From a virus (Duplodnaviria; Heunggongvirae; Uroviricota; Caudoviricetes), in IMG/VR virus record IMGVR_UViG_3300023181_000027, positions 35,473 to 99,472 of that record: DNA of 64,000 nucleotides; one strand, written 5' to 3'. A model generated the notes under the pieces. It was given only the letters and a program-made list of their open reading frames with translations, ran no database searches and was not told where the DNA came from. Position numbers and translations under genes: made by a program. Shown here piece after piece: positions 38,354 to 51,473 of this stretch. The stretch's first letter is position 1; every line of letters begins with the position of its first letter.

Positions 38354-38465
38354 CGGACGAGAGGAGATTCGAACTCCTGACACGGGCATTAAAAGTGCAA
38401 ATTAATGACTTCTAAGTGATAGGATCACTATTTGTTTCCTGCTCTACCAGCTGAGCTACTCGTCC
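38354..38465 (-). tRNA. tRNA gene with an internal insert of about 40 nt (112 nt total) carrying a conserved AGUGAU-CCU-AUCACU triloop hairpin
   Basis: Acceptor GGACGAG/CUCGUCC, a canonical D-arm UAGCUCAGCUGGUAGAGC and T-arm AGGAG-UUCGAAU-CUCCU, but 57 nt lie between the D- and T-arms. The motif is at about 38411-38430. Confidence 0.55.
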
Positions 38466-38471
38466 GTTTTG

Positions 38472-38801
38472 TTATTCTACTCTATTGTTTACTGTTATGA
38501 TCAATCTACGTAATAGACTATCAGACTTCTTCTGTTCTCTTGCGATGTCTACACCAACTTTTTCTATTCTCTTCATAAGTGCTAGCTTTCCAGCGATGTC
38601 TACAACAGGTAGACTATCAAGAGAGTCAGTCTTATTCACTCTAGATTGTATAAGAGAATCTAACCTGACGTTATTGCTATCAATGTTCATAGCGATAGCT
38701 TCAAGGCGGTGATCATCTGTTACTTTGGGCGCATAACAGATAACAAAAGTGAGAAAGATTACGATTATTGATACCAATACTGTACCGATTTTATCTGTCA
38801 T
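38472..38801 (-). CDS. small membrane-anchored protein (109 aa)
   Basis: N-terminal TM helix. Confidence 0.45.
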   Translation of the reverse strand: MTDKIGTVLVSIIVIFLTFVICYAPKVTDDHRLEAIAMNIDSNNVRLDSLIQSRVNKTDSLDSLPVVDIAGKLALMKRIEKVGVDIAREQKKSDSLLRRLIITVNNRVE

Positions 38802-38805
38802 GTGG

Positions 38806-39150
38806 TTAATTGGTTTTAGGTAAATACTCCTTACGGATATGGAAGTAGCTTTTTTTTAATTTGTGCTCGAAGTGGATAGTATCTCCAACCTTATGGTTGT
38901 AGTACCACTCCTCATTTATCATTCTACCATATCCACAACTGCTGATTACTGTAAACATAGTTGGATCTTCAATATCCCTTATTAGAGCGAACATACACAA
39001 CTGTGGCGTACTAAATTTACTCTGCTCCAAAGAACTTTCATTGTTCATACTTACTATCACACCTTTACGATCATGATAAGATTTGTCTTCTTTCTCTGTA
39101 GGTATACAGGATGTCAGAAATAATAATGCTAATAAAATTAAAGTTTTCAT
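38806..39150 (-). CDS. lipoprotein (114 aa)
   Basis: Signal peptide with lipobox LTSC. Confidence 0.45.
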   Translation of the reverse strand: MKTLILLALLFLTSCIPTEKEDKSYHDRKGVIVSMNNESSLEQSKFSTPQLCMFALIRDIEDPTMFTVISSCGYGRMINEEWYYNHKVGDTIHFEHKLKKSYFHIRKEYLPKTN

Positions 39151-39167
39151 ATTTTACGTTTTAAATG

Positions 39168-39278
39168 TGGTAGGGGCGTGCGGAGTTGAACCGCTATTTC
39201 AATTTATCAGATTTGTTTTTAACCAAGTAATTGATTCTAAGTGAGATGCTCACTACTAATTTATATTTAACGCCCCTA
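39168..39278 (-). ncRNA. tRNA-like RNA with encoded CCA, no canonical D-arm, and an internal AGUGAG-CAU-CUCACU hairpin
   Basis: Acceptor AGGGGCG/CGCCCCU-A-CCA. T-arm GCGG-UUCAACU-CCGC. Motif at about 39236-39258. Confidence 0.4.
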
Positions 39279-39279
39279 G

Positions 39280-39393
39280 CGAGGAAGAGTGGACTCGAAC
39301 CACTGACCTTCAGGTTTACCTTGCTTTATGATTGCTAAGTGACATAGTCACTAAAATTGCACCTGACGCTCTGAACCACTGAGCTACTTCCCC
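39280..39393 (-). tRNA. tRNA gene with a 40-nt insert inside the anticodon loop (114 nt), carrying an AGUGAC-UAU-GUCACU hairpin
   Basis: Acceptor GGGGAAG/CUUCCUC, D-arm UAGCUCAGUGGUUCAGAGC, anticodon stem UCAGG/CCUGA enclosing 47 nt, T-arm AGUGG-UUCGAGU-CCACU. Confidence 0.6.
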
Positions 39394-39396
39394 TTC

Positions 39397-39518
39397 TATT
39401 GTTGCGGCGAAGGGAATCGAACCCATATCCACTGCAGGGTAGACGAATCCTTTACCAAGGTGGAATCGAACCACAATCATCCCATCGAGCAGGACTCTAG
39501 CCTTGTTGAGCTACATCC
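39397..39518 (-). ncRNA. tRNA-like region, one or two tRNA-like genes (two T-arm-like GGUUCGAUUCC elements), not resolved by hand
   Basis: D-arm-like UAGCUCAACAAGGCUAGAGU, and T-arms GUGG-UUCGAUU-CCAC and GGG-UUCGAUU-CCC. No ORFs in this region. Confidence 0.35.
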
Positions 39519-39525
39519 GCATTAT

Positions 39526-40071
39526 TTACAATATTAATCCTAACGCCTGCAGACCTTCAGCATGTTTCTCTGTAGTCATATCATAGTAAGTGTCTCCACT
39601 AATCTCCTTGAAGGCTTTAGCGTGAAACACTTCATCGTGATAGATCTCTTTGAAGATAGCCTGTATGTCTTTAGGCGCATTGTCATCCTCCATGATGATC
39701 TTAATTCTTTCCAACCTCATCTCTTCTGCGTGAGCAGCGATACCTGCCACATAAAGACCATCACCTTCTGGAGCAGCAGTTAACGCGGCCGGCCAATATC
39801 TCTCTTCTTTGTTGAGTATTTTGGGTGTCACCCCACGCATAATGAGAAGACTTCCAATCCAGGCTGCGTGACGATCTTCGTCATTTGCAATTCTACTTGC
39901 TAACTTATAAGCTGTTGACGTGGGCTCAAAGTGAACGACAATTAACTCTCTAATTCTGGTGGCAGCAGTAGCTTCCCCATGATATTGATTCTTTAACCAA
40001 CCAATAATCAGGTTGGGATCGTCTTTAATACCGTCCCACCATTGTTGCGGTGTTTTCATCTCTTTTTGCAT
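39526..40071 (-). CDS. ferritin-like di-iron carboxylate protein (MiaE/rubrerythrin-like superfamily)
   Basis: Paired ExxH motifs: DEDRHAAWI and DEVFHAKAF, plus additional Glu sites EATAATRIREL and AHAEEMRLE. Confidence 0.4.
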   Translation of the reverse strand: MQKEMKTPQQWWDGIKDDPNLIIGWLKNQYHGEATAATRIRELIVVHFEPTSTAYKLASRIANDEDRHAAWIGSLLIMRGVTPKILNKEERYWPAALTAAPEGDGLYVAGIAAHAEEMRLERIKIIMEDDNAPKDIQAIFKEIYHDEVFHAKAFKEISGDTYYDMTTEKHAEGLQALGLIL

Positions 40072-40100
40072 TGTTAGTTAGGTTTTAAAATGTTAATTTA

Positions 40101-40236
40101 TGGATGTAGGGAGACTCGAACTCCCGTCCCTGCAGCTACTCATACCTACCACTCAAGTACATCATCGTGTTTCTCCCACACGTGGGAGAGTATGGTCTCA
40201 AACACCGTCCGCTCTCATCCTCTGAGCTATACACCC
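40101..40236 (-). tRNA. tRNA gene with an insert of about 60 nt (136 nt) containing the palindromic hairpin UCUCCCACGUGUGGGAGA
   Basis: Acceptor GGGUGUA/UACAUCC, D-arm UAGCUCAGAGGAUGAGAGC, T-arm GGGAG-UUCGAGU-CUCCC. The intervening region is long. Confidence 0.45.
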
Positions 40237-40324
40237 GAAAGAAACCCTCTTCTCTTAAGTCAAAGTAAAAATTTGATGTGCTCTTAACACGTGTAAGTAT
40301 TCTAAGAGGGTTTATATTGTTATT

Positions 40325-41323
40325 TTAAGCGGCTATTCCTAGCCTACCTATTAATAGAAGCGAAGGTTTCTCCTCACTGCTCGGAATGCTTGGTTTAACC
40401 CCGAAAGCACTGTCCACAGCTTTTATCAAGTCCGCTAAGTTCATAGAACCAGCATTCTTTATGATATCCAACACTTCTTTGTGTGATTTTAAAACTGGCA
40501 TAAATAGTCCTTTTGCTTCATCAGCATAGACCACACTGTGCGGCCATTGTTTAGGTAGAGCTATCTCTTTGCAGAGATTCGGTCTCCCAGAAATGCGTTC
40601 ACTCCGCATATGCTGTCTGTTCTTCCACTCAGCTATTTCCTTATCTCGCCTTGCCAAATCAGCCTCCTTCTTCAACGCTACAAGATCTTCCAGTGGTGTA
40701 GAAAATGTACTACGGCTTTCAATCACGTTATTCCATTGTTTTCTAGCTTCACCCCACTTGATATCTGGTCTGGCGTTAGGATCAGTGATTAGATCTTCAG
40801 TGTTAACCTTTGCGCCAGTACCATTCCAACCTTTCGGAACTTCAATAGGAACTTCAATTTTCACGTCTTTCCAATCAGAAAAAGCTTTAATTGGTAAGAT
40901 GCTATTAAGCGAGTATCTGCTCCATCTAGTAGCGTAAGCTTCACCGTAGTAACGTACCCAATCATTCTTATCAGATAGTACCAGTGAATTTAGCATACTC
41001 CACTCTAACTTATTACTAACTGCAGAGGTTAATGCTATAAAGACACCTGCTTTGGGGTGAGCCTCGCGGAATGTTTTAATAGTATCATATTGCCCTCTTC
41101 CAATATTAAATACAAAATCAGCACCCATGATACTATTGCTCTGTTTAGGTGGAACAATAAATAGAGTATCTGCATCGGTTATAGGCGTGTTAGTAAACTT
41201 AGTACCTTTCGGATATTCAAATACATCAACATCATACTTAGCAAGTTCTTCACGGGCCACTCGAGAAAGTGTTTCATCTGCTATATTTGAGTGGCTCAGA
41301 TATACTTTCCTTTTCCCACTCAT
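40325..41323 (-). CDS. hypothetical protein (332 aa) with a possible TIR/SLOG-like Rossmann N-terminus
   Basis: The N-terminus KVYLSHSNIADE...DVDVFEY resembles TIR-like starts. The assignment is weak. Confidence 0.3.
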   Translation of the reverse strand: MSGKRKVYLSHSNIADETLSRVAREELAKYDVDVFEYPKGTKFTNTPITDADTLFIVPPKQSNSIMGADFVFNIGRGQYDTIKTFREAHPKAGVFIALTSAVSNKLEWSMLNSLVLSDKNDWVRYYGEAYATRWSRYSLNSILPIKAFSDWKDVKIEVPIEVPKGWNGTGAKVNTEDLITDPNARPDIKWGEARKQWNNVIESRSTFSTPLEDLVALKKEADLARRDKEIAEWKNRQHMRSERISGRPNLCKEIALPKQWPHSVVYADEAKGLFMPVLKSHKEVLDIIKNAGSMNLADLIKAVDSAFGVKPSIPSSEEKPSLLLIGRLGIAA

Positions 41324-41327
41324 AATA

Positions 41328-41666
41328 TTAAACGGTTTCTTCGGCTACTTCAGTGAACCAACGTTTGGTAACTCGATCTGCAGCGGCAATTAACACTTCA
41401 ACTTCAAGGATTTCAACCTCGATCTTGTTTAAGTCTGCCACCCATTTCTCAGGCAGGAAGCCGTCGTTTACCACCTTGGTACTCAACTCACTATCAACGT
41501 TGATATCTTCCAATCTCATACGTTTTTCTTCCAGGGCAAGTTTCTTATCTTCCAATGCCTGTACATACTTTGCTTGCGCATTTGAAGTCTGTTTGGAGAC
41601 AATAGTAGTTCTTTCTCCTCTGATACCAGTTCCTGAGGCGTTTAGCCTCGCTTCGAATTTATTCAT
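41328..41666 (-). CDS. coiled-coil protein (112 aa)
   Basis: Track ORF with heptad-rich sequence. Confidence 0.45.
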   Translation of the reverse strand: MNKFEARLNASGTGIRGERTTIVSKQTSNAQAKYVQALEDKKLALEEKRMRLEDINVDSELSTKVVNDGFLPEKWVADLNKIEVEILEVEVLIAAADRVTKRWFTEVAEETV

Positions 41667-41699
41667 TTTGTTTTGTTTTAAAAGGTGAGCTGAGTTTAA

Positions 41700-42422
41700 T
41701 TAGCTCACCTTAGTTAAGATAATTGTACGTATTACTACATCTGGCTTCTGTCCCTCTGCTATTTTAGCATCGTCTTCTGCCATCAGTGGTGAGTAGTGAT
41801 CATGCATATACTGAGCCAATGGTCTGAATTCTGTTTGTCTCATGTGATGTATTTCCTGATCGTATATACTCAGAGTTGTCAACCCTTCAAGAACTGTTTT
41901 ACACTTAAAGTATTCTCGAGCTGCTCTCGCCATAGGACAATCAGCGTGATCTTGCCAGTTTGAACCTTTAAAGTGTTTAGCTTGCAATTGTAATTTAACT
42001 TCCATAGGATGTTTAAGTGGTTCAAGTAAAATAAAAGACTCTTCAAACACAATATTGTCTGGTATCCACGTATGCCCAAACATCTCTGCCATTTGTAGAG
42101 GTGTAAAGTAGTTGAGTGATGGTTTAGAAGTGTAAGGTACATAAAAGTCAAAGGTGGGGTTATCAAAAGCTACATCATATAAGCCTTTCACACCTTTAGT
42201 GATCTGCTCTTTAGTTATAGCAGGATAACCACTCCTTAACTCCTTTGTTATAATACCATACGCTCTTCCCACCCAACCTTCAGCAACACCATAAGGATAA
42301 CCAAAGTTCTCTCTCATTAATAAGGCGATACCTTTACCATGTCTTCCTTGAGGATTGGTACCACCAACAAGAACACCATTAGCTGGGAGTTGCGTGAACT
42401 CCCCTTTAAATGTCTTCCTCAT
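41700..42422 (-). CDS. hypothetical protein, possible macro/Rossmann-like nucleotide-processing domain (start placed at the internal ATG)
   Basis: Gly-rich motif GVLVGGTNPQGRHGKGIALLM. Starting at MRKTF (ATG 42420-42422) limits the overlap with the upstream gene to 17 nt. Confidence 0.35.
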   Translation of the reverse strand: MRKTFKGEFTQLPANGVLVGGTNPQGRHGKGIALLMRENFGYPYGVAEGWVGRAYGIITKELRSGYPAITKEQITKGVKGLYDVAFDNPTFDFYVPYTSKPSLNYFTPLQMAEMFGHTWIPDNIVFEESFILLEPLKHPMEVKLQLQAKHFKGSNWQDHADCPMARAAREYFKCKTVLEGLTTLSIYDQEIHHMRQTEFRPLAQYMHDHYSPLMAEDDAKIAEGQKPDVVIRTIILTKVS

Positions 42423-42900
42423 TGAACTCAGGTGGCAGTTTAGGATTACGTAAATCATGTCCGTGACCTTTCCTTTTAATCCATTCACCTGGCGGATGTC
42501 CTGTACCGTCCCACTTAATGTGCGCTTCAAAAGCCTCTTTAAGTGATGGATAGCAATATCTCCACTCATAGAATTGACCGTTATTGCTGACACCAACCAT
42601 CAATCCCACCGTAAATGCCATGCGTTGAAGACAAACGTTGACCACTGTTCCTTCAACTTCGAGCTTCCGGACAAAGTAGTTGCCTTGTTCTTGCAAGACG
42701 ACATCGAGTGCATGTGGATGATGTTCACCACACTGTAAGTAAAACTTCTCAGAATATGGACGAAAGAACAGCTTGTTAACTTCTGTAGCATCTAAACCCT
42801 GTAGTTGAGCGTTAAAGGCCTCACGCGTTGTTATGTCTTGCATAAATCTTGTATTGATAGGTAAACAAATGGTGTGACTATCAGATCTAATATCACACAA
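42406..42900 (-). CDS. hypothetical protein (164 aa)
   Basis: Track ORF with an acidic C-terminus. Confidence 0.45.
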   Translation of the reverse strand: MCDIRSDSHTICLPINTRFMQDITTREAFNAQLQGLDATEVNKLFFRPYSEKFYLQCGEHHPHALDVVLQEQGNYFVRKLEVEGTVVNVCLQRMAFTVGLMVGVSNNGQFYEWRYCYPSLKEAFEAHIKWDGTGHPPGEWIKRKGHGHDLRNPKLPPEFNEEDI

Positions 42901-43003
42901 AAACTAATTCTTAAAGCTTTGTCAATGCCGGCAAATGGACTTTTAGTCTCATCCCATTCATCAGACTTTCTGAATATGAGATAACAAATCAATGTAAGCA
43001 TAT

Positions 43004-43384
43004 CTAATCGATATAGATTACATCCGGAAAGCCACGTATGAACATCACTTTAGTGACATCACATAACCACATTGTTTGCTCAATTGGTACACCTTTAAAG
43101 TGTTTCAAATGATAATAAGCTCCAGTATGTGGTGGTTGCATCAACTCAACTAAATGCATTGGTTCTGAACCTTCAAACTCTTCATCAGAGAAGGTTATCC
43201 AACAACGATCATGTTTAGTTACATGATTTAAGAAATCATCAGCACCACAAACCATTTCAAGTTCAGATTTCTCACCTTGCCATTCCGGGATTATGGCGTA
43301 CCATTTACCGTCAGGGTCTTTTTCGAATTCTAATTCACGCTTAACCATGTAAATCAATTGCTTTTTGAGGGGCAGTGTAAGCAC
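43004..43384 (-). CDS. hypothetical protein (126 aa)
   Basis: Track ORF. Confidence 0.45.
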   Translation of the reverse strand: MLTLPLKKQLIYMVKRELEFEKDPDGKWYAIIPEWQGEKSELEMVCGADDFLNHVTKHDRCWITFSDEEFEGSEPMHLVELMQPPHTGAYYHLKHFKGVPIEQTMWLCDVTKVMFIRGFPDVIYID

Positions 43385-43817
43385 TACTTGAGAAATACCT
43401 TTTCAATTGTACCGCTGTCATGCTCTCAGGTTTTAAATCTGGTAAGTTAGCATGATTGAACCATCCCCATTGAATGTGCTCTCTATTAGGGAATACTTTC
43501 GTTGGATCCTTAGCCACTGTAGCTTGAAATACCTTGACGATGAACTTATTATCAGATAGCCAATACTTGGTTTCTTCAAATGATGTGAGATGATAACCAA
43601 TCTCCTCATTAAATTCCCGTGCAGCTGATTCAGCATAATCCTCCCAACGAGAGAAGAATCTCTCACTAGAAGGAGTTTCTATGTTTTCACTCATAAAATC
43701 AAGCTTTCCACCAGGGAAACACCATTCTAACGGATACATTGGATGTCCGTCACTTCTTTGCAACAGGAGAACTTCTCCTTTAGGGTTTGTTGTCAATACC
43801 ACTTGTGATCTTTTCAT
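43341..43817 (-). CDS. Nudix hydrolase
   Basis: Nudix box GGKLDFMSENIETPSSERFFSRWEDYAESAAREFNEEIG (Gx5Ex7REUxEExGU). Confidence 0.7.
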   Translation of the reverse strand: MKRSQVVLTTNPKGEVLLLQRSDGHPMYPLEWCFPGGKLDFMSENIETPSSERFFSRWEDYAESAAREFNEEIGYHLTSFEETKYWLSDNKFIVKVFQATVAKDPTKVFPNREHIQWGWFNHANLPDLKPESMTAVQLKRYFSSSAYTAPQKAIDLHG

Positions 43818-43837
43818 AACTGTTTGAGGGTTTGAAA

Positions 43838-44080
43838 TTAATATTCTCCTTTGGTTTCATCGAGTTCTAGGCGGAGTTGCCTGTTTTCACTCTCAACGCG
43901 AGTTTGTCGCTCTTTAAGTTGATCAACCTCCCATTCTAGACGTTGTACTCTATTGACACAATTCGTATCCACAACATATCCCACACTTTTTGCATCAACT
44001 GGCTTAGTACAGCCAATCATGTACATTACACCTATAATGAGTAGGATCAACACCATTGTTTTTGTATGTTTTCCACTCAT
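43838..44080 (-). CDS. small lipoprotein or spanin-like coiled-coil protein
   Basis: N-terminal hydrophobic segment with lipobox MIGC, then the coiled coil QRLEWEVDQLKERQTRVESENRQLRLELDE. Confidence 0.35.
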   Translation of the reverse strand: MSGKHTKTMVLILLIIGVMYMIGCTKPVDAKSVGYVVDTNCVNRVQRLEWEVDQLKERQTRVESENRQLRLELDETKGEY

Positions 44081-44119
44081 CTGTTTATAAGTTAAAACTG
44101 TTAATTAATCTGTTAATTG

Positions 44120-44229
44120 CAGGGGCGGAGAGAATCGAACTCCCATTTACGGCTTGGAATGCTGAATAAATGTTTATAAGTGACAGAATCACTACTATTT
44201 ACGTTGTCCTACCATTAGACTACACCCCT
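44120..44229 (-). tRNA. tRNA gene with an insert of about 35 nt (110 nt) carrying an AGUGAU-UCU-GUCACU hairpin
   Basis: Acceptor AGGGGUG/CGCCCCU, D-arm AGUCUAAUGGUAGGAC, T-arm GGGAG-UUCGAUU-CUCUC. Motif at about 44173-44197. Confidence 0.5.
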
Positions 44230-44282
44230 GTTTATTTTAAGCAAGAACGAGTGATTGTTTAGGCCACCCGTTCAGGCTACCC

Positions 44283-44711
44283 TCAAACTACCTGCTGTCT
44301 TAATGCAGTTAACTTTTCTTGTATTTTTCCCTTCTTTTCTTCCGGCGTTTCAAACAATCCCAATTCTTTCTCAAGAAGTGCAATCTCTCTAGCCAGTTTC
44401 GCTTTCTCCGATTCTACCGCTTTTGTGAAACGGATAAGGTCGACAATATCAGCCAACTCTTCAGCAGTGATATCCGCTACATAGAATTTGGCTTCAGCGC
44501 TTTCTTTCTTAATCCTGGTTGACACTACATTAACAGGCATTTGCTTCAAGCTTGTGAATAGAGCTTTCAAAGTCTCATCTTTTGCTTCATGCAATAACTG
44601 CTGTATGGTTAAGTGATCTGTAAAAGCTTTCTTTATTACTGGAATCACTATATTATTGTTCACACACTTCAGTATGAACTCATTCAATTTAAGACGGTCT
44701 TGTTCGGTCAT
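44283..44711 (-). CDS. hypothetical protein (142 aa)
   Basis: Track ORF. Confidence 0.45.
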   Translation of the reverse strand: MTEQDRLKLNEFILKCVNNNIVIPVIKKAFTDHLTIQQLLHEAKDETLKALFTSLKQMPVNVVSTRIKKESAEAKFYVADITAEELADIVDLIRFTKAVESEKAKLAREIALLEKELGLFETPEEKKGKIQEKLTALRQQVV

Positions 44712-45255: not shown

Positions 45256-45578
45256 TACACTGAGATTAGCGCTCTATAATATTTCTTGCCTTGTGTGTTC
45301 ACTTCATCACCGGGGACAAGCAGATCAAATCTACTATCTCTTTGAGATTCAGCTACGTCTTTCGAAACGATATATAATACACTAAGGTCTTCAACCGGAC
45401 GAGGGAGCCCTTGCACCCTGCCCATACGCTTGGAGAGAATTGGAACTCCGTCCACTTCCCTATCTTTAACTGTAGTAACCACGCTAGTAGCCCTTCCTAT
45501 TACGGGAAAGGATTTAACTACTGTACCGCGATCGTTAACTACATTGATAGTTTCTCCTGTTAAGTTAACAATTTCCAT
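45255..45578 (-). CDS. hypothetical protein (107 aa)
   Basis: Track ORF. Confidence 0.45.
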   Translation of the reverse strand: MEIVNLTGETINVVNDRGTVVKSFPVIGRATSVVTTVKDREVDGVPILSKRMGRVQGLPRPVEDLSVLYIVSKDVAESQRDSRFDLLVPGDEVNTQGKKYYRALISV

Positions 45579-45613
45579 TTTATTAGTTTAAATGGTATCT
45601 AATAGATGATTAA

Positions 45614-45964
45614 TTAAATTAGATTAAATAAACTACTTGAAGAACGTTCCTCCTTACCTGTTGCACTGGTTACCACACTCCATTCGCCACGTAGACATTG
45701 AAAGTACACTGTGGAGTAACTCCCATCAATATCATCTTTAAGGTGTAACATCTTAAAGTATAATTGATTGTGAGCTCTTTCAAAAGTGTCTAGTAACTGT
45801 AATATAGGTTTGAGTTTAAAAGCTGATAATATCCGCACATCTTTAAATGTGAATTGGATGAACTTCATGTTCTTTCCAACTATTAGGAATGAAGAGCCAA
45901 AAGCATTGATTAGCTCCGCCTTTATTCCAGGTTCAATCGATATTGTTAGTTTTAATTCTCTCAT
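45614..45964 (-). CDS. hypothetical protein (116 aa)
   Basis: Track ORF. Confidence 0.45.
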   Translation of the reverse strand: MRELKLTISIEPGIKAELINAFGSSFLIVGKNMKFIQFTFKDVRILSAFKLKPILQLLDTFERAHNQLYFKMLHLKDDIDGSYSTVYFQCLRGEWSVVTSATGKEERSSSSLFNLI

Positions 45965-46158
45965 AGTATTTAATCGTTTTTCCCCACAAGCCTAGCCTGC
46001 AGTTTGTTGTACAATTGATTATTTTTCATTCGTTCTTATTTAAGTTTATAATAGTCACCCCACCCAGTGTACGATCTGAGATTTCCAGCTGGTTTTGGCC
46101 GGCGTCCTGACGTTTTAGACGATAAGGCGGTGGAACTCTTTAGAGTTCATTTAGGTTT

Positions 46159-46734
46159 TTAATTTGGTTCTTGTGCGTCTAGCACGATTCTAATGGCATC
46201 ACATTCAAGGGCAAGTTTGGCTTGTTCCTCAACCAGTTCGTTAATGTATAAAGCCACATCGTAATACTCTTTATACTCGCTATCATTTTGCATGATTTCG
46301 GTGTAGTGAGCAATGCTGTTAAGTAACTCTGATACTCTATTATCCTTGGTTGCGCTTCTCAAAAGGTCTATATCGAATAGACACTCAATTGTACCAATCT
46401 TATCATCTCTGATAAGTGAAAGCTTTAACCTCCTTAACAAACAGGCCTGTTTATATTCTTTCTTATGTACAAATTCTGCATAAGCGTTCTCATGCTCAAA
46501 CAGTAGGTTATCTAGTTTCTCTTGTATTCCATTCTTTTTCGTATCGGCATGTGGTCTGTTTCTCAGACTCTCTAACTTACTCTTAATCCACAGCATACGC
46601 GCTTCTTTGTCATTAAGGGCAGAACGGACTCTATCCTCTGATTTCTTGAAGAACGTAGTGATGTCTGAAGAAGTGATCGTATTATCCGCTGGTTGGAGCT
46701 TGTATTCTTCCAACGCTTCTTCAATTCTCCTCAT
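46159..46734 (-). CDS. hypothetical protein (191 aa)
   Basis: Track ORF. Confidence 0.45.
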   Translation of the reverse strand: MRRIEEALEEYKLQPADNTITSSDITTFFKKSEDRVRSALNDKEARMLWIKSKLESLRNRPHADTKKNGIQEKLDNLLFEHENAYAEFVHKKEYKQACLLRRLKLSLIRDDKIGTIECLFDIDLLRSATKDNRVSELLNSIAHYTEIMQNDSEYKEYYDVALYINELVEEQAKLALECDAIRIVLDAQEPN

Positions 46735-46763
46735 TGTAATAATTTTGATTACCCCTAATCTGT

Positions 46764-47240
46764 TTATTGGTATTTAGCAAGCATTAGACGTGCCTTATCC
46801 AGCACCTCTTCTGTTGGTGTCTTGCTCAACACCCGTTCGATCGCTTCATCTATTTGCACCAACTCAGACACCGAGAACTCTTCCTGGAAGATCTTCAGTG
46901 CATATGCCATAGCTTTCCACGCTCGTAATTTATCTTCCTCTTCACCATTAAAGCTTATTCTTACAGCTCTAAATGCCTCTTCAGTTTTAATAACTTCAAA
47001 TTGAAAATACTCTCTAAAGGTAAGGTTGTAAAACCAAACCAATTCCTCAGAACTTCTGAGGCCATCAATAACTATAGAGAAGTTATCAATGGTATATTGT
47101 AAGTGTTTCTGCATTTTCATCATTCCCTCGCGAACACACGCAATAAAGTATAATATGAGAGCATTGTTACGTACTATATCACGTGAGATGCCAGCATCAA
47201 GATCCTTCTTAACACTGGCAGTAAACTCACATAAGTTCAT
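46764..47240 (-). CDS. hypothetical protein (158 aa)
   Basis: Track ORF. Confidence 0.45.
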   Translation of the reverse strand: MNLCEFTASVKKDLDAGISRDIVRNNALILYFIACVREGMMKMQKHLQYTIDNFSIVIDGLRSSEELVWFYNLTFREYFQFEVIKTEEAFRAVRISFNGEEEDKLRAWKAMAYALKIFQEEFSVSELVQIDEAIERVLSKTPTEEVLDKARLMLAKYQ

Positions 47241-47242
47241 GG

Positions 47243-48127
47243 TTACAAGATCTTATAAGGATCCGCTACAGGAATTAATTGCATTTTCAAAATGCTACTT
47301 GTACTGTCTTCACCATGTTCTTTCAAACCGATGGCTACATTCGCGCATCTCACTTCAGTGATTAACGCACAAGCTTCAGTGCCCTCTTCTTTGTAAAACT
47401 CATTGTAGAAGCGGATGGAGATATTACTACCTTCTATCGCAAATCTAACTTGTTTAACATTGCTGATGGTCTGATTCTGATTTAATATAACATCAGTGAG
47501 CAATTTCCTTGACAGACCGCCCATATACATCAGCTGTTTATAAGTAAAGACTGTCCCCATAGCTTCCGTGATGACTAATTTATCAACTTTCGGCACCACT
47601 TGTTGCTTAGGCTTGCTCTGGGGAGTTTTAATCGCCTTTGGTTGCTCAACTGCAGCTTTTACTTGCTTTTGTGGCTCCTCTGATTGCGGCTCTTTTGGAG
47701 CTAACGCCATTGCACGGGTTTTATATTTACCGCGTTTCTTACCAGTTTTGTCATTCTTTTTAGGCTCTTCCACTACAGGAGCACCTTTTACTTCAATTGC
47801 CGGTTTAGGATTGATTGACGCGGTTTCCTTTTTACTGTGGTTTTTCTGGGTGATTGCTTTGATCTTCTCATAGACTTTCTCAGCGAGTTTGAGATCAATT
47901 GCACCGGCACCAAAGTTCCATTGCCACAATCCTTGTTTATTTTCTTCCTTTACAAACTTCAGGATTTCTAATTCCTTTAAAGCCGGTAGGGTTTCATTTT
48001 GTACCTTGTGCTGTTTTAGAAACTGCGTGAGAGATACTTTTACTGGGGTTGGCGAGTTAGTCGCCGTTTTGATGCTGTGTAAGCAAGCGGTTATAGCCGC
48101 CAATCTTTGTGCTGCATTTGCTGCCAT
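47243..48127 (-). CDS. hypothetical protein with a Lys/Pro-rich disordered central region
   Basis: Track ORF. Its middle is low-complexity (KPKQQVVPK, KKNDKTGKKRGKYK). Confidence 0.45.
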   Translation of the reverse strand: MAANAAQRLAAITACLHSIKTATNSPTPVKVSLTQFLKQHKVQNETLPALKELEILKFVKEENKQGLWQWNFGAGAIDLKLAEKVYEKIKAITQKNHSKKETASINPKPAIEVKGAPVVEEPKKNDKTGKKRGKYKTRAMALAPKEPQSEEPQKQVKAAVEQPKAIKTPQSKPKQQVVPKVDKLVITEAMGTVFTYKQLMYMGGLSRKLLTDVILNQNQTISNVKQVRFAIEGSNISIRFYNEFYKEEGTEACALITEVRCANVAIGLKEHGEDSTSSILKMQLIPVADPYKIL

Positions 48128-48455
48128 GATCTAGGTGTTTGAGGTTTAAACATTTAATATCATTATCTACGGCATTTCACCGTAACAGTTTTAACTTTTA
48201 AAGAGTTGGGAGAGAAGCTTCTACTTTGCAGCATTGGTCTGCATTGTTTCCACTCCTTTTTCTCCCAACAGTGCTGATGGAGTGAGGAACCATCTTCCTA
48301 AACAAAACCAACTTGCAGACTTAGGATCTTCTTCCATTTGCGGGCTACAAGCAGCTCCACTTGATAACTTGCCCGTTCCATAGGTCAAAGAACATTAAAA
48401 TCTTACAATCAGATATTCTTGGTCAATACTATCCAGCGTTAGACTGCACTCACTT

Positions 48456-49133
48456 TTAATACCCTTTTCTTTGAAGTAGTTCCATAATAGCTTTTAATTG
48501 TGGGTCATTATCAAAAAGACCACTCAATTCAGAGCTAACGGCAGTTTTCTCTGCCTTTTTCTTACCTAATTCTCCGTCACGCTCTTCGATGATGTGTGAT
48601 TTAATCACTTCCAATACAACTTTAACCATTACTGTCGGTGAAATTCCTTTATCCTGGCCACCTTTATGCATTACCTGCATAGCAATTTCTGCCACTTTGA
48701 TAATATCGAACACGTGATCAACCTGTATATAGGCCACTTTACCTTCCTTATCAGTGGATTTATCAGCTTTCTTCTGAGTGATCTTATCCTGATTTAACAG
48801 GGCCATACCACCTTCATAATTAGCTTCAATTTCGTAATTGTTAAGGTAACAGTACATAGCAACTTTGTATTGCTTTGGAAAGATCATCGCACTGTATTGA
48901 TCACTTGGGCAGAACATTGGAACATGGAGCTTATCAACTTTTATGGTTGCTCTGCCTCCACCTTTCGGTAAAGTTATGAGTGCTCTGCCATCGGTAACTT
49001 CCTCAACAATAACAACCTGACCATACAACTGCTCTGTCATACCAATCATCTTTTCTCTGTTTTTAGGTATTGCAACATATATGCCACCTTTAGCTACATT
49101 GAGAGCTTGTTTTAGAATTATTGTACCTTTCAT
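48456..49133 (-). CDS. hypothetical protein (225 aa)
   Basis: Track ORF preceded by the AAACCCCC upstream element. Confidence 0.45.
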   Translation of the reverse strand: MKGTIILKQALNVAKGGIYVAIPKNREKMIGMTEQLYGQVVIVEEVTDGRALITLPKGGGRATIKVDKLHVPMFCPSDQYSAMIFPKQYKVAMYCYLNNYEIEANYEGGMALLNQDKITQKKADKSTDKEGKVAYIQVDHVFDIIKVAEIAMQVMHKGGQDKGISPTVMVKVVLEVIKSHIIEERDGELGKKKAEKTAVSSELSGLFDNDPQLKAIMELLQRKGY

Positions 49134-49170
49134 TAGTTTGGGGGTTTATAATTAATGGTAATTCAATATT

Positions 49171-49395
49171 TTACTTGATAACAGTACCAACTTCATAGTC
49201 ACTATCTGGTTTCTGTAAGCTAACAAGAGCTCCTTGGAAACCGAAGTCATTTTGACTGACATACACTCTATCACCTACATTAAAGGCTTTATCTGTGTAG
49301 ACTACGGAATTGTTACGTAATTTAACTTTACTTTTGACATTACTAATACAACTAACCAGAAGCATCGGTAATAAGAATAATAACAGCTTTTTCAT
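49171..49395 (-). CDS. small lipoprotein (74 aa)
   Basis: MKKLLLFLLPMLLVSC signal peptide and lipobox. Confidence 0.5.
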   Translation of the reverse strand: MKKLLLFLLPMLLVSCISNVKSKVKLRNNSVVYTDKAFNVGDRVYVSQNDFGFQGALVSLQKPDSDYEVGTVIK

Positions 49396-49488
49396 TTTGT
49401 TACGGGGTTTTAATTAACAGTTTAAAAAAGAAGAGTGACCGGCATCCACCAGGTCACTCTACGGGCTAATAGTTGTTACATTATGAGG

Positions 49489-49573
49489 CGCGAGTGAATG
49501 GATTCGAACCACCGACCTGTGTCCATCTGCTAAGCATGGGGAACCACCGCTCTACCGACTGAGCTACACTCGC
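49489..49573 (-). tRNA. tRNA (85 nt, probably a long-variable-arm type), with a CUUAGCA loop
   Basis: Acceptor GCGAGUG/CACUCGC, D-arm UAGCUCAGUCGGUAGAGC, T-loop UUCGAAU. The anticodon assignment is uncertain (possibly UAG). Confidence 0.5.
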
Positions 49574-49579
49574 ATGAGA

Positions 49580-50080
49580 TTACCAACCTGGATCTCTATG
49601 CTTAACAAGGTAATTATATAACTCCTCGCCACTCATGAATTTACCAACTTGGTAATTTGGGTCTTTGAAACGTTCAGCGGATGGATTGGTCACTGTAAGT
49701 ATGTGGTTATTGTGACGTAGGGTCCACAAGCTATAACCAGCTTTATCACTGTAGGTTTCCATCATACGCCAAGAGAATGCTTTTACATAGTCTCCTGTTG
49801 TGTTACCACGTTTATCATAACCAGCATTTGGATCATACGTTTCATCGTCTCCATCAACTCTATTAATGTTTGTAGGTATCCCAACAGTGAGGAGTCCAAC
49901 CTTTAACATGGAATCCACTTTCAATTGGTATTTGTTTTTCACTTTAACAGGCACACTCACTGGAACCACTACAATAGGCTCTACAGTTTTAGCTGGCTCT
50001 GGGTAAAATACTGTTTTGTCACAACTCATTAAGAATAGTGGTGTTAGTAACAGCAAGACTAAGTTGGCTAACTTTTTCAT
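49580..50080 (-). CDS. lipoprotein (166 aa)
   Basis: MKKLANLVLLLLTPLFLMSC signal peptide and lipobox. Confidence 0.5.
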   Translation of the reverse strand: MKKLANLVLLLLTPLFLMSCDKTVFYPEPAKTVEPIVVVPVSVPVKVKNKYQLKVDSMLKVGLLTVGIPTNINRVDGDDETYDPNAGYDKRGNTTGDYVKAFSWRMMETYSDKAGYSLWTLRHNNHILTVTNPSAERFKDPNYQVGKFMSGEELYNYLVKHRDPGW

Positions 50081-50122
50081 TTTGATTTGGGGGTTTTAAT
50101 ATTATGATTGTTTGTCTTTTCA

Positions 50123-50518
50123 TTAACTGGCGTAGGCGTTTAGCATTTGTACAAGAATGTCGAGATCAGTGGAGATAGCAGCACCTGCAGCACCTCTCTG
50201 TGCAGCTAATTGACTAACTGCATAAAGTGACTTTTGCTGGTGTACATCAAAACCATCAAGTAACCCATAGAATATGGTACGCTTGTCTTTACGGTAACAA
50301 GAGTCTATAACTTCAGCAATACTAAAGAAACCGATTATCTCTTTGCTAATCACATATAAATGCACGTTACATAGGTCTTTCTGTCGCTCTTCTTCTGCTT
50401 GTGCTTCTGGTGTCCAGTCAGCTACTACAGGATTGAAATAGTCCACTTTTAATTGAGGGATAAGTTGGTCTCTCCAAGTACTGTTGTTGCAAGTACCACC
50501 TAAAAAGATTTTAGTCAT
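50123..50518 (-). CDS. nucleoside 2-deoxyribosyltransferase-like protein, paralog of 21256..21735
   Basis: N-terminal KIFLGGTCNNSTWRDQLIPQL matches the (I/V)(F/Y)LxG...(T/D)WR signature of NDT-like proteins. Confidence 0.45.
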   Translation of the reverse strand: MTKIFLGGTCNNSTWRDQLIPQLKVDYFNPVVADWTPEAQAEEERQKDLCNVHLYVISKEIIGFFSIAEVIDSCYRKDKRTIFYGLLDGFDVHQQKSLYAVSQLAAQRGAAGAAISTDLDILVQMLNAYAS

Positions 50519-50534
50519 GATTGTATATTTAAGA

Positions 50535-50969
50535 TTAAGATTTCCACTTCATAAGTAATGCGTGCATTAGAAACTCATTAGGATCTTGCATTACCACTTT
50601 AAATGACATATCAACATAGATCAACTCAGTTTCTTGTTTATCCAGATCGGTCATTTGATCAAAGATTTCACCAATATCAGGGCATACGAGATGTGAGGTG
50701 GATTTAACGTAGAATGGTATCTCTCTAATCACTTCTGGGCACCCACCTATCCACTCACCTAATTTGCCACCAGCATATAAGTAAGAAAACTCACGTGGTG
50801 TGTCTTTCACTTTACTCATCACTCGATTACCAAATGTGTAGAAACCGTACTTTGTGCCACCACCTTTCCAACCTAGTTGAACTGGTGTAATCCTCTTTAA
50901 TAGCTCGCGGCATTCCTCATCAGAGGTACGGCCATAATTCTTTAATAAACGTTCGATGTTTGTCATCAT
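50535..50969 (-). CDS. hypothetical protein (144 aa)
   Basis: Track ORF. Confidence 0.45.
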   Translation of the reverse strand: MMTNIERLLKNYGRTSDEECRELLKRITPVQLGWKGGGTKYGFYTFGNRVMSKVKDTPREFSYLYAGGKLGEWIGGCPEVIREIPFYVKSTSHLVCPDIGEIFDQMTDLDKQETELIYVDMSFKVVMQDPNEFLMHALLMKWKS

Positions 50970-51363
50970 TGTGGTTTAGCGGTAAGTAAAAAAAGAGTAA
51001 TACACCTCTAATGCATCACTCTTCGATCAATAAAACAATAACAAATTTAGCACCCTCTACATTTCATCGCCGGGTAAGCAGCAATATAGCAGTTAGGGTC
51101 AAGCCTGACACTCTTACGCCCGAAGGCTATTCGCATAACTCTAAAGGGATTATAAAAACCCTCACGCTTGTCAAAGGCGTATATACGGTTAGGATTACTC
51201 CATTACTCGGTGTCAATTCACCGATAACATCTTTAACTGCTCTCCACCGTTTTACTGGTGGGTCATGACAGTTCAGGATCAATGTTTAGCCTGGTTTTCC
51301 TAGGACACTCTTGTGTACACGTTCTTCACGAACTCTAGAATAGCACTCACACCGGTGTGAGTT

Positions 51364-51473
51364 GGGAGAAGGACGGGATTCGAACTCGCGACCACGGCAA
51401 CCAAAAGCTTATTAAAGGCTTCTAAGTGATAAAATCACTGTGTTACGTGCTCTGAACCAGCTGAGCTACCTTC
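51364..51473 (-). tRNA. tRNA gene with an insert of about 35 nt (110 nt) carrying an AGUGAU-UUU-AUCACU hairpin
   Basis: Acceptor GGAGAAG/CUUCUCC, D-arm UAGCUCAGCUGGUUCAGAGC, T-loop UUCGAAU. Motif at about 51419-51441, identical in context (AGUGAU...AUCACUUAGAAG) to the 38354..38465 gene. Confidence 0.5.

What the first reader, a model, noticed from the sequence alone, without database searches (positions are those of the whole stretch)
38354..51473. Family of tRNA genes each interrupted by a 35-45-nt insert sharing an AGTGAN-NNN-NTCACT(TAG) triloop hairpin whose loops read like anticodons
At least five minus-strand tRNA or tRNA-like genes have perfect acceptor, D- and T-arms but are 110-114 nt long: 38354-38465, 39168-39278, 39280-39393, 44120-44229 and 51364-51473. 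Each insert contains the same 6-bp hairpin AGUGAN/NUCACU, followed by UAG or UAU. The triloop is the only variable part, reading CCU, CAU, UAU, UCU and UUU. These are exactly the anticodons phages typically supply for rare A-rich codons (Arg AGG and AGA, Ile AUA, Met/Ile, Lys AAA). In 39280-39393 a clean anticodon stem UCAGG/CCUGA flanks the whole 47-nt insert, so the insert sits in the anticodon loop. At 40-60 nt the inserts are too short for group I introns and have no obvious bulge-helix-bulge, so this does not match a described bacterial or phage tRNA intron class. Alternatives are a new kind of mini-intron or processing cassette, Y-RNA-like tRNA mimics, or decoys for anticodon nucleases.
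Basis: seen in the sequence. Interest (0 to 1): 0.85.

Follow-up and report, generated by a model that had tools for sequence, protein, structure and literature searches.

The report
Phage tRNAs carrying Ro60-partner insert
Five phage tRNA-type genes each carry the same ~39-base hairpin insert, and this kind of insert travels across many phages with a gene for a Ro60-like RNA-binding protein, pointing to an undescribed protein-RNA partnership built on transfer RNAs.

Summary
Five minus-strand tRNA-type genes share one ~39-nt element: an A-rich 8 nt, a 6-bp/3-nt hairpin, and a tail beginning UAGAA or UAUAA.

The triloop is not an anticodon. In the two cleanest genes the element lies in the 5' strand of the anticodon stem (28/29, 29/30), not in the loop. 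Deleting exactly 39 nt gives perfect tRNA-Lys(UUU) and tRNA-Gly(UCC).

It is neither a bulge-helix-bulge nor a group I intron. Oversize tRNAs with an insert at the same positions are common in large phages.

The main new result is linkage. The window encodes a Ro60-like TROVE+vWA protein (25161-27059). Across IMG/VR, window-type inserts occur in 22/31 loci carrying that protein family, 44 copies, all on the gene's strand. Controls gave 1/120 (p=3e-18). A sister insert class is tied to DUF2828/DUF7788 genes (13/19 vs 0/101). A close relative has neither the inserts (in the 21 kb seen) nor the protein gene at its syntenic site.

Best reading: the insert is the docking module of a phage Ro60-like protein. 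It probably acts as a protein-dependent intervening sequence. A retained, Y-RNA-like role is the main rival. Nothing here shows RNA processing.

The parts
38354..38465 (-). tRNA-Lys(UUU) gene interrupted between nt 28 and 29 (5' strand of the anticodon stem)
   Evidence: A single 39-nt deletion gives stem GGGCA/UGCCC and loop CUUUUAA. This is the unique best solution. The spliced sequence folds as a perfect cloverleaf at minimum free energy. Shuffles give such a solution in 0.3-0.8% of trials.
38399..38437 (-). 39-nt module: AAACAAAU + hairpin AGUGAU-CCU-AUCACU + UAGAAGUCAUUAAUUU
39168..39278 (-). Degenerate tRNA-Ile(GAU)-like RNA gene with acceptor stem, T arm and encoded CCA. It has no canonical D arm; the module lies in the D-loop region.
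   Evidence: Sequence and fold. Counterparts occur next to Ro-like genes: L196:9088-9198, L209:10803 and L225:9153.
39224..39262 (-). 39-nt module: AAAUUAGU + AGUGAG-CAU-CUCACU + UAGAAUCAAUUACUUG
39280..39393 (-). tRNA-type gene with an intact anticodon stem UCAGG/CCUGA and the module inside the loop. No deletion gives U33.
   Evidence: Rfam tRNA 54.5 bits with a 46-nt insertion. Deletion scan. The 8+15+16 rule leaves the 8-nt loop UAGGUAAA.
39322..39360 (-). 39-nt module: GCAAUUUU + AGUGAC-UAU-GUCACU + UAGCAAUCAUAAAGCA
44120..44229 (-). tRNA-Gly(UCC) gene interrupted between nt 29 and 30
   Evidence: A 39-nt deletion gives stem ACGGC/GCCGU and loop AUUCCAA. This is the unique best solution. 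The product folds as a perfect cloverleaf. Rfam 44.6 bits.
44163..44201 (-). 39-nt module: UAAAUAGU + AGUGAU-UCU-GUCACU + UAUAAACAUUUAUUCA
51364..51475 (-). tRNA(UUG)-like gene. The junction ACG^...^GC gives a perfect stem ACGGC/GCCGU but an 8-nt loop UUUUGGUU. The T stem has one mismatch.
   Evidence: Compare L075, which has ACGGC UUUUGGU GCCGU.
51409..51445 (-). 37-nt module: UAACAC + AGUGAU-UUU-AUCACU + UAGAAGCCUUUAAUAA
25161..27059 (-). 632-aa Ro60-like protein (TROVE-type ring domain plus vWA domain with an intact MIDAS motif), the presumed protein partner of the modules
   Evidence: No Pfam or PDB sequence hit. AF2 model has pLDDT 86.5. The top Foldseek PDB hits are full-length: a TROVE domain (9kop, E 1e-6) and D. 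radiodurans Ro/Rsr (2nvo, E 2e-6). hhalign to a DUF2828/DUF7788 protein gives 97.6% probability. Modules co-occur with this family in 22/31 loci against 1/120 controls. The gene is absent from the syntenic site of the uninterrupted relative L192.

Best explanation
The five genes are phage tRNA genes, or decayed derivatives of them. Each has acquired one copy of a ~39-nt RNA module: a hairpin whose 3' strand ends in ACU, followed directly by UA(G/U)AA and an A/U-rich tail.

The module sits where the cloverleaf can still fold around it as an extra arm. In 38354, 44120 and 51364 this is between nt 28/29 or 29/30 of the anticodon stem. In 39280 it is in the anticodon loop. In 39168 it is in the D-loop region.

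The module is the cognate RNA element of the phage's own Ro60-like TROVE+vWA protein (25161-27059). The ring protein is inferred to dock on the helix plus the adjacent single-stranded motif, as Ro60 does on Y RNAs. The transcripts would then exist as tRNA-scaffolded ribonucleoproteins.

I think it most likely, at about 50%, that the module behaves as a protein-dependent intervening sequence. The Ro-like protein would act like a maturase or recognition factor. Cleavage at both sides of the extra arm would leave a nicked anticodon stem. That nick would be sealed by a host or phage RNA ligase (RtcB or Rnl2 type), releasing working tRNA-Lys and tRNA-Gly. The less canonical copies would be by-products of the element's spread.

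**Shown:** the element and its positions, hairpin covariation, the protein's fold, and the genomic linkage.

**Inferred:** binding, cleavage and ligation.
For: **Position and tRNA integrity**
- The same 39-nt deletion, in the same register (8+15+16), gives perfect canonical anticodon arms in two genes. A perfect stem results in a third.
- Among IMG/VR oversize tRNAs with a unique single-deletion solution, 25 of 32 have the insert at 28/29 or 29/30.
- In neighbouring arrays, the anticodons of interrupted tRNAs mostly fill slots not covered by ordinary tRNAs (11 of 13 loci).

**RNA-level structure**
- The closing pair covaries among the five copies, and its U.G pair is valid only on the sense strand.
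- The hairpin of the sister class covaries strongly: 89% of cells paired against 68% in shuffles, 33 double changes, 0/500 shuffles as high.

**Protein partner**
- The window ORF is Ro60/TROVE+vWA-like by fold.
- It is homologous to DUF2828/DUF7788 proteins.

**Linkage**
- Window-type modules occur in 22/31 loci carrying the same protein family. There are 44 copies, all on the gene's strand. Controls gave 1/120 and 1/53 (Fisher p=3e-18).
- In L196 an interrupted tRNA-His lies 35 nt upstream of the gene.
- The sister class, with a CNGCA motif, lies 0.1-1.5 kb from a same-strand DUF2828 gene in 13/19 loci against 0/101 (p=3e-13).

**Presence or absence in relatives**
- The syntenic relative L192 has ordinary tRNAs in the region seen, and it lacks the Ro-like gene exactly at its syntenic site.
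- L059 and L071 also have uninterrupted tRNAs.

**Precedent**
- Ro60 genes are flanked, within 4 kb and on the same strand, by tRNA-like Y RNAs that carry a short recognition motif (PMC4201824).
- TROVE proteins with a tRNA-like partner have been noted in jumbo phages (PMC7824862).
Against: - There are no expression, binding or splice-junction data.
- No endonuclease or RNA ligase was detected among 87 window ORFs at E<4e-5. None recurs next to the modules elsewhere.
- In the window the protein gene lies 11-26 kb from the modules, not adjacent to them.
- Three of the five window copies would not give a canonical tRNA. Two give 8-nt or U33-less loops, and one lacks a D arm and has a weak anticodon stem.
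- Only 11 of 44 related genes resolve by one deletion in the anticodon arm.
- The tail motif ACUUAUAA also occurs on the coding strand just before start codons. This holds in the window and in a relative whose fetched region lacks the protein gene. It may therefore be a promoter-like or translation-start-like signal rather than, or as well as, a protein site.
- The covariance model of the sister class does not detect the window's modules (best 12.3 bits, E=4.3).
Confidence: 0.5

Rival explanations
1. The module is never removed. The 110-114-nt RNAs are the functional species. They are Y-RNA-like non-coding RNAs in which a tRNA body serves as a handle or mimic, and the inserted module tethers the Ro60-like protein. 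The complex would act in RNA surveillance or repair, or as a decoy or tether for tRNA-directed host enzymes.
For: - The linkage to the Ro-like gene is the same as for the best explanation.
- The known Ro60 partners YrlA and Yrn1 are stable tRNA mimics encoded beside the gene.
- Bacillus phage Thrax3 has a DUF2828 gene beside a tRNA array that contains a sub-threshold YrlA match (37.5 bits).
- Three of five window copies, and many relatives, cannot become canonical tRNAs by a single deletion in the anticodon arm.
- The D-armless, CCA-encoding form recurs in distant phages.
- No splicing enzymes were found.
Against: - Canonical 7-nt anticodon loops with U33 and a purine at 37, and many different anticodons, are kept beyond the insertion point.
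- Interrupted tRNAs mostly complement the ordinary tRNAs beside them rather than duplicating them.
- A relative keeps an ordinary tRNA-Lys(UUU), whereas the only tRNA-Lys gene seen in this window is the interrupted one.
- The topology differs from YrlA: the RNA ends are at the acceptor stem and the anticodon arm is complete.
- The Rfam YrlA model finds nothing in window 30000-58000, which contains all five genes, at E up to 1, and nothing anywhere in the window at its gathering score.
Confidence: 0.3
2. The element acts mainly at the DNA level. It would be a small mobile palindromic cassette, or an internal promoter and regulatory site, that has landed in tRNA genes. Under this view the link to the Ro-like gene is hitch-hiking.
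For: - The tail ACTTATAA matches a motif that recurs on the coding strand directly before start codons in the window (44092, 34665, 38250, 27071) and in relative L192.
- TTACAGCAA likewise recurs upstream of DUF2828 ORFs.
- In L198 the motif lies about 10 nt upstream of a tRNA.
- The five window copies are near-identical, as expected after a recent spread.
Against: - Every copy lies inside a tRNA-type gene in the sense orientation. Copies sit at structurally equivalent sites (28/29, 29/30, or the D loop before G18G19) in tRNAs of unrelated sequence.
- There is no target-site duplication.
- The hairpin sequence is free while its pairing covaries, and one pair is U.G.
- A sigma-70-type scan does not flag these sites and shows no enrichment.
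- No transposase or RAYT-like family appeared among the window ORFs.
Confidence: 0.1
3. One reading: the triloops are functional anticodons or anticodon mimics (Arg, Met/Ile, Lys). The RNAs would be unusual decoders, or decoys for anticodon nucleases.
For: All five triloops read YNU. Phages commonly carry Arg(UCU/CCU), Ile, Met and Lys tRNAs, and the relatives have Lys UUU, Arg UCU and Met CAU.
Against: - The bases flanking the triloop form a covarying pair, including G-C and C-G, so the loop is 3 nt with no U33/R37 geometry.
- The true anticodon arms lie elsewhere and differ from the triloops: UUU against CCU, and UCC against UCU.
- Homologous modules in other phages have loops of other sizes and sequences.
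Confidence: 0.03

Closest known systems
Bacterial and phage Ro60 (Rsr) with Y RNAs (YrlA, YrlB, Yrn1)
   Same: - A TROVE+vWA ring protein is encoded in the same genome and on the same strand as tRNA-like RNA genes.
- In related phages (L196 and the IMG/VR loci) the RNA genes lie within a few kb of the protein gene.
- A short conserved motif next to a helix is the likely recognition site.
- Several partner RNAs occur per locus.
   Different: - The protein is very divergent. It has no Pfam TROVE hit, and its relatives are annotated DUF2828/DUF7788.
- The RNA is a normally oriented, complete tRNA with the module inserted in the anticodon stem or D loop. YrlA is instead a permuted tRNA-like domain joined to a terminal Ro-binding stem.
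- The motif is ACUUA(N)AA, or CNGCA in the sister class, rather than GNCGAA.
- The Rfam YrlA model does not match.
- In this window the protein gene is 11-26 kb away.
Archaeal non-canonical tRNA introns (bulge-helix-bulge, cut by EndA, joined by RtcB)
   Same: These are short (tens of nt), protein-dependent intervening sequences. They occur at non-canonical positions that include 29/30 and the D loop. They spread among tRNA genes of one genome.
   Different: No bulge-helix-bulge can be drawn at either inferred splice site. No EndA-type gene was detected in the window. The carrier is a bacteriophage: it has a tmRNA and typical phage genes.
'Enigmatic' tRNA introns of Lak megaphages (Devoto et al., 10.1101/356790)
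   Same: Both are oversize tRNA genes in large phages, with short inserts that Rfam does not classify and whose mechanism is unknown.
   Different: The Lak sequences were not compared here. No protein partner or insertion-site rule was reported in that paper.
Group I introns in bacterial and phage tRNA genes
   Same: They interrupt tRNA genes in the anticodon region of bacterial-type genomes.
   Different: Group I introns exceed 200 nt, have a catalytic core, and sit in the anticodon loop. These inserts are 37-39 nt, mostly in the stem, and give no Intron_gpI hit.

Membership tests
Bulge-helix-bulge (archaeal/eukaryal) tRNA introns | Two 3-nt bulges separated by a 4-bp helix, with both splice sites inside the bulges | tested here: not met
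   Using the splice sites fixed, the four exon nucleotides at -6 to -3 (AGCA in 38354, ACAA in 44120) cannot pair with intron -6 to -3 (UAAU, UAUU). This was read directly from the sequence.
Bulge-helix-bulge (archaeal/eukaryal) tRNA introns | A splicing endonuclease (EndA/Sen) is available | tested here: inconclusive
   No such family appeared among the 25 listed Pfam families for 87 window ORFs. Families not listed have E>4e-5. The other 70 kb of the contig and the host genome were not seen.
Group I tRNA introns | Catalytic core of more than 200 nt (P3-P9), located in the anticodon loop | tested here: not met
   The inserts are 37-39 nt. There is no Intron_gpI match in the window at the gathering score, or at E up to 1 in 30000-58000.
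Ro60-Y RNA module | A TROVE+vWA (Ro60-type) protein is encoded in the genome | tested here: met
   An AF2 model of 25161-27059 matches a TROVE domain (9kop) and D. radiodurans Rsr (2nvo) over its full length, at E about 1e-6. The MIDAS residues are invariant.
Ro60-Y RNA module | The partner RNA gene lies within about 4 kb of the protein gene on the same strand | tested here: inconclusive
   In the window the strand is the same, but the distance is 11-26 kb. In 22/31 related loci and in L196 the modules lie within 6 kb, often under 1 kb, and all on the same strand.
Ro60-Y RNA module | The RNA has a tRNA-like domain | tested here: met
   Rfam tRNA hits of 37.7-54.5 bits. Cloverleaf folds.
Ro60-Y RNA module | YrlA/Y RNA sequence-structure signature (GNCGAA motif, terminal Ro-binding stem, Rfam RF02553) | tested here: not met
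   No YrlA match in window 30000-58000 at E up to 1. The motif differs and the RNA ends lie at the acceptor stem.
Ro60-Y RNA module | Physical binding of the RNA by the protein | not testable with these tools
   This needs immunoprecipitation or gel-shift assays.
Phage tRNA inserts with a CNGCA motif (class defined here; model R1) | Insert at 28/29 or 29/30 of the anticodon stem, consisting of a covarying hairpin followed by a conserved single-stranded motif and an A/U-rich tail | tested here: met
   38354 and 44120, compared with the 25 of 32 IMG/VR cases at these positions.
Phage tRNA inserts with a CNGCA motif (class defined here; model R1) | Invariant C-N-G-C-A motif and a significant score with the class covariance model | tested here: not met
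   The window has UAGAA, UAUAA or UAGCA instead. The best R1 score is 12.3 bits, E=4.3.
Window-type module (hairpin ending ACU + UA(C/U/G)(A/C)A) linked to A4-type Ro-like genes (class defined here) | Motif A-C-U-U-A-n-n-A at the 3' foot of a hairpin, inside a tRNA-type gene, in a genome encoding an A4-family protein | tested here: met
   The motif is invariant in all five window copies and in two L196 copies. There are 44 further copies in 22/31 A4 loci.
Lak-phage 'enigmatic' tRNA introns | Sequence or positional identity with the inserts of Devoto et al. | not tested
   Only the text of the paper was read. Its Table S6 sequences were not compared.

The most novel reading that the evidence does not exclude
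Bacteriophages carry a protein-dependent tRNA splicing system that has not been described. A Ro60-like TROVE+vWA protein would recognise a hairpin-plus-motif module inserted in the anticodon stem or D loop of phage tRNAs. It would license precise excision and re-ligation. These would be the first non-self-splicing tRNA introns in the bacterial world. The intron and its 'maturase' gene would spread together as a selfish pair. This would also give a first function to the DUF2828 family, which is present in about 700 sequenced phages.
Probability: 0.3. Interest if true: 0.92.

Novelty: new variant of a known kind. Interest (0 to 1): 0.78.

Why it matters
If the partnership is real, it gives a concrete RNA ligand and a testable role to a large orphan phage protein family. 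DUF2828/DUF7788 and its divergent relatives matched about 700 GenBank phage records, including Felix O1-like, Listeria, Staphylococcus and mycobacterial phages.

It would explain the 'enigmatic' oversize tRNAs of large phages, which standard tRNA finders miss. That in turn changes estimates of phage decoding capacity.

It also links Ro60/Y-RNA biology directly to genuine tRNAs. Two outcomes are possible. One is a new route of tRNA maturation in bacteria-infecting viruses. The other is an evolutionary intermediate showing how tRNA-like Y RNAs arose. Either outcome can be tested with simple RNA and binding experiments.

Tried and rejected
- **Triloop as anticodon.** Rejected on closing-pair covariation and on the true anticodon arms.
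- **ARAGORN with introns allowed, and ARAGORN run on all single deletions.** Too permissive and inconsistent to assign anticodons. Replaced by a strict stem/U33/R37 scan.
- **Bulge-helix-bulge.** Not formable at either inferred splice site.
- **Self-cleaving ribozymes, group I introns and YrlA.** No Rfam match on the inserts at E up to 1.
- **Exact-motif scans.** IMG/VR gave 53 hits and JGI metagenomes gave 10. None was in a tRNA context. L070 is an unrelated bulge-helix-bulge-like intron.
- **Close relatives by DNA or protein.** Nothing in GenBank phages. Nothing in IMG/VR with the 332-aa neighbouring protein.
- **Pairing between the two ends of the insert.** A stem with 6 of 8 pairs can be drawn in three window copies, but it is not conserved in the wider class.
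- **Sigma-70 promoter and intrinsic terminator scan.** No enrichment, and the module sites are not called as promoters.
- **First ORF clustering.** It seemed to place the window's 632-aa ORF in a family next to interrupted tRNAs. The link was one weak blastp hit and tblastn found nothing. It was accepted only after hhalign and the structure search.
- **DUF2828 in the literature.** No functional study was found in the library.

Full report
**1. The observation**

The window is positions 62536-126535 of a 134,778-bp metagenomic contig (ENA ERZ27228488, k141_348780). It is a phage. It carries DNA polymerase, primase-helicase, Sak4, NAMPT, Ter proteins, PTH2 and a tmRNA. Nearly all genes are on the minus strand. 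It has no close relative in GenBank phages.

Each carries AGUGAN-NNN-NUCACU followed by UAG or UAU. Ten specified bases are expected about 0.1 times in 64 kb. The palindrome occurs six times, five of them in these genes.

Rfam's tRNA model scores three of the genes above its gathering threshold, with 46-50 extra nucleotides in the anticodon arm. A T-arm/acceptor scan adds 38354. Default ARAGORN misses all five.

Some details need correcting:
- 39168-39278 has no proper D arm and ends in an encoded CCA.
- 51364 has a T-stem mismatch.
- The pair closing the triloop covaries (U-A, G-C, C-G, U.G, U-A). The U.G pair is possible only on the sense strand, which argues for a hairpin in the transcript.

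**2. Where the insert sits**

I scanned every single deletion for a 5-bp Watson-Crick anticodon stem, U33 and a purine at position 37. This gave one best solution in 38354 and one in 44120.

| Gene | Deletion | Stem | Loop | Identity | Position |
|---|---|---|---|---|---|
| 38354 | 39 nt | GGGCA/UGCCC | CUUUUAA | tRNA-Lys(UUU) | 28/29 |
| 44120 | 39 nt | ACGGC/GCCGU | AUUCCAA | tRNA-Gly(UCC) | 29/30 |

In both cases the deleted piece is 8 nt, the 15-nt hairpin, then 16 nt. Shuffled sequences give any perfect solution in 0.3-4% of trials per gene. The deleted forms fold as perfect cloverleaves at minimum free energy.

So the insert interrupts the 5' strand of the anticodon stem, and the triloops (CCU, UCU) are not the anticodons.

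The other three genes are less clean:
- 51364 uses the same junction (ACG^...^GC). It gives a perfect stem but an 8-nt loop, UUUUGGUU.
- 39280 keeps its stem intact with the insert in the loop. It cannot yield U33.
- 39168 has the insert in the D-loop region of a degenerate tRNA-Ile(GAU)-like RNA.

A bulge-helix-bulge cannot be drawn at the inferred splice sites. No ribozyme or intron family in Rfam matches.

**3. Relatives without inserts**

Three relatives have ordinary tRNAs at comparable places: Lys UUU, Arg UCU, Met, Glu and Phe. The relatives are L059, L071 and L192, found through neighbouring proteins (30-85% amino-acid identity, conserved gene order). The inserts are therefore a lineage-specific gain.

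Exact-motif scans of IMG/VR and JGI metagenomes found no further tRNA-borne copies of the AGUGA hairpin.

**4. A wider class of interrupted phage tRNAs**

- Among the oversize tRNAs in these loci with a unique clean single-deletion solution, 25 of 32 have the insert at 28/29 or 29/30.
- Eighteen of them align with an invariant C-N-G-C-A lying 2-5 nt after a variable hairpin.
- That hairpin covaries strongly: 89% of cells paired against 68% in shuffles, with 0/500 shuffles as high.
- A covariance model of this class finds 26 members in the 120 loci. It does not detect the window's inserts (12.3 bits, E=4.3). The window family has the same architecture but a different sequence.
- Rfam has no family for these inserts.

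Five other searches found nothing on mechanism.

**5. The protein partner**

Clustering ORFs around the CNGCA-class tRNAs showed one shared family, Pfam DUF2828+DUF7788 (vWA).

- It lies on the same strand, usually 0.1-1.5 kb downstream, in 13 of 19 loci with such inserts. It is in 0 of 101 loci without them (Fisher p=3e-13).
- The window's 632-aa ORF at 25161-27059 has no Pfam, PHROG or PDB sequence match.
- A profile of 62 homologues aligns to a DUF2828 protein over 409 columns with 97.6% probability.
- Its AlphaFold model (pLDDT 86.5) has as top PDB matches, over its full length, a TROVE domain (9kop) and Deinococcus Ro/Rsr (2nvo). vWA domains follow.
- The MIDAS residues are invariant.

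It is therefore a Ro60-like protein. Some GenBank DUF2828 proteins are already annotated 'Ro-like RNA binding protein'. In Bacillus phage Thrax3 the gene sits at the end of a tRNA array that holds a sub-threshold YrlA match.

**6. Linkage of the window-type module to this protein**

- In L196 (protein 33% identical to the window's), the gene-free kilobase directly upstream of the Ro-like gene holds two relevant genes. One is a tRNA-His(GUG) with a 43-nt insert at 29/30: UAAAAUUU, AGUAACUAUAUAGUUACU, UAUAAU... The other is a D-armless, CCA-encoding tRNA-like gene, the counterpart of window 39168.
- Aligning these with the five window modules leaves A-C-U-U-A-n-n-A invariant at the 3' foot of the hairpin. 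The loops and stems vary.
- Fetching all IMG/VR loci with this protein family gave 31 loci. Modules defined as a hairpin ending in ACU, then UA(C/U/G)(A/C)A, with a T arm within 130 nt, occur in 22 of them.
- There are 44 copies, every one on the strand of the protein gene. Controls gave 1 of 120 tRNA-rich loci and 1 of 53 random viral loci (p=3e-18).
- In the syntenic relative L192, the region seen has ordinary tRNAs. The homologues of the two genes that flank the Ro-like gene are only 34 nt apart there, so the protein gene is missing from that site.

**7. How it probably works**

*Shown:*
- a conserved RNA module with a covarying hairpin;
- defined insertion points that leave the cloverleaf foldable;
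- a Ro60-like protein in the same genome;
- very strong genomic linkage in two independent module and protein subfamilies.

*From published knowledge:* Ro60 proteins bind a helix plus an adjacent motif of Y RNAs. Bacterial and phage Y RNAs are tRNA-like and are encoded beside the Ro60 gene on the same strand (PMC4201824). TROVE proteins with a tRNA-like partner are thought to form RNA-repair platforms (PMC7824862).

*Inferred:* the module is the docking site of the phage Ro-like protein.

Whether the module is then cut out is open. In favour of excision:
- Canonical anticodon loops of many specificities are preserved beyond the insert.
- Interrupted tRNAs usually complement the ordinary ones beside them (11 of 13 loci).
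- The only tRNA-Lys gene seen in this window is the interrupted one, whereas a relative keeps an ordinary copy.
- Module and protein gene appear and disappear together, like an intron and its maturase.

After cuts at both feet of the extra arm, the exons would remain paired as a nicked anticodon stem. That is a natural substrate for a nick-sealing ligase.

Against excision:
- No nuclease or ligase was found.
- Three of the five window copies, and many relatives, would not become canonical tRNAs by one deletion in the anticodon arm. By eye, several of those carry the module in the D loop just before G18G19, for example L225:9153 and L215:9363.

I put excision at about 0.5 and a retained Y-RNA-like role at about 0.3.

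**8. A caveat on the motif**

ACTTATAA(ACAG) also recurs on the coding strand immediately before start codons. In the window this includes the Ro-like ORF itself, at 27071. It also occurs in L192. TTACAGCAA recurs upstream of DUF2828 ORFs, there enclosed by a long stem.

The motif could be a promoter-like or translation-start-like signal. It could equally be a protein site shared with mRNAs, and the stem-enclosed copies could be a second, YrlB-like RNA. A sigma-70-type scan is uninformative.

**9. Verdict**

It is best filed as a new variant of the Ro60/Y-RNA theme that overlaps with the unexplained tRNA 'introns' of large phages.

Noticed in passing
window 52678-53177 (-): A phage-encoded tmRNA (Rfam 78.8 bits) that is about 500 nt long. 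The model is 374 positions, and the extra length comes from large insertions after the tag region. The inserts were not examined for modules.
   Followed up: no
window 39403-39520, 40101-40236, 49487-49573, 54892-54980 (all -): Four more oversize or odd tRNA-type genes without the AGUGA hairpin. 39403 (118 nt) contains a second, nested T-arm-like hairpin. 40101 (136 nt) has a CUCCCA-CGUG-UGGGAG hairpin. 49487 (85 nt) has about 12 extra nt. ARAGORN gives 54892 a 4-base 'anticodon'. None resolves to a canonical tRNA by one deletion.
   Followed up: partly
window minus strand at 44092, 38250, 34665, 27071 (also 47545, 24909, 15765, 2960); L192:1557, 3751, 9988, 11696: The motif (TTTA)ACTTATAA(ACAG) recurs on the coding strand, often ending 0-10 nt before an ATG. 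This includes the start of the Ro-like ORF. It resembles the tail of the tRNA modules. It may be a phage promoter, a translation-start signal or a protein-binding site.
   Followed up: partly
L078:450-574, L092:290-416, L132:1230-1363, L168:5400-5535: Upstream of DUF2828 ORFs, the sequence (GG)CAC-UUACAGCAA is closed about 50 nt later by the complementary GUGCC. This suggests a separate small stem-closed RNA, or a leader, carrying the same motif as the tRNA inserts. It could be a YrlB-like second partner RNA.
   Followed up: no
window 51364-51475 and 39280-39393: Applying the common junction rule leaves 8-nt anticodon loops (UUUUGGUU and UAGGUAAA). Loops of this size are typical of frameshift-suppressor tRNAs. 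This may instead be decay, or a sign that these copies do not decode.
   Followed up: partly
L225:9153, L215:9363, L209:10803, L218:9544 and others: In many relatives the module lies in the D loop, immediately 5' of G18G19, of otherwise canonical tRNAs (Ile GAU, Asn GUU). This is a second preferred insertion site. My anticodon-arm solver did not model it.
   Followed up: partly
window 39526-40071 (-): A rubrerythrin-like gene lies among the tRNA-type genes. It is 55-66% identical to cellular rubrerythrins, so it is probably an auxiliary metabolic gene and hints at an anaerobic host.
   Followed up: no
L070:3031-3129: A JGI contig (Ga0265297_10002017, 43.5 kb) has a tRNA(UUG) with a 44-nt insert. 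The anticodon pairs with the insert in the archaeal bulge-helix-bulge manner. It is unrelated to this family and was hit only by chance on the AGUGA...UCACU pattern.
   Followed up: no
L195:588-691 (Bacillus phage vB_BanS-Thrax3, ON548419.1): An unannotated sub-threshold YrlA-like match (37.5 bits, E=3e-5) lies inside the tRNA array, 2.3 kb upstream of the DUF2828 gene on the same strand. A further 455-nt unannotated gap lies directly before the gene.
   Followed up: no
window 27476-31339 (-) and one ORF not located: A tellurite-resistance-like cluster is present (TerC, vWA-TerF-like, PRTase, HAD hydrolase, TerD). Elsewhere in the window one ORF matches the archaeal/eukaryal-type peptidyl-tRNA hydrolase PTH2.
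   Followed up: no
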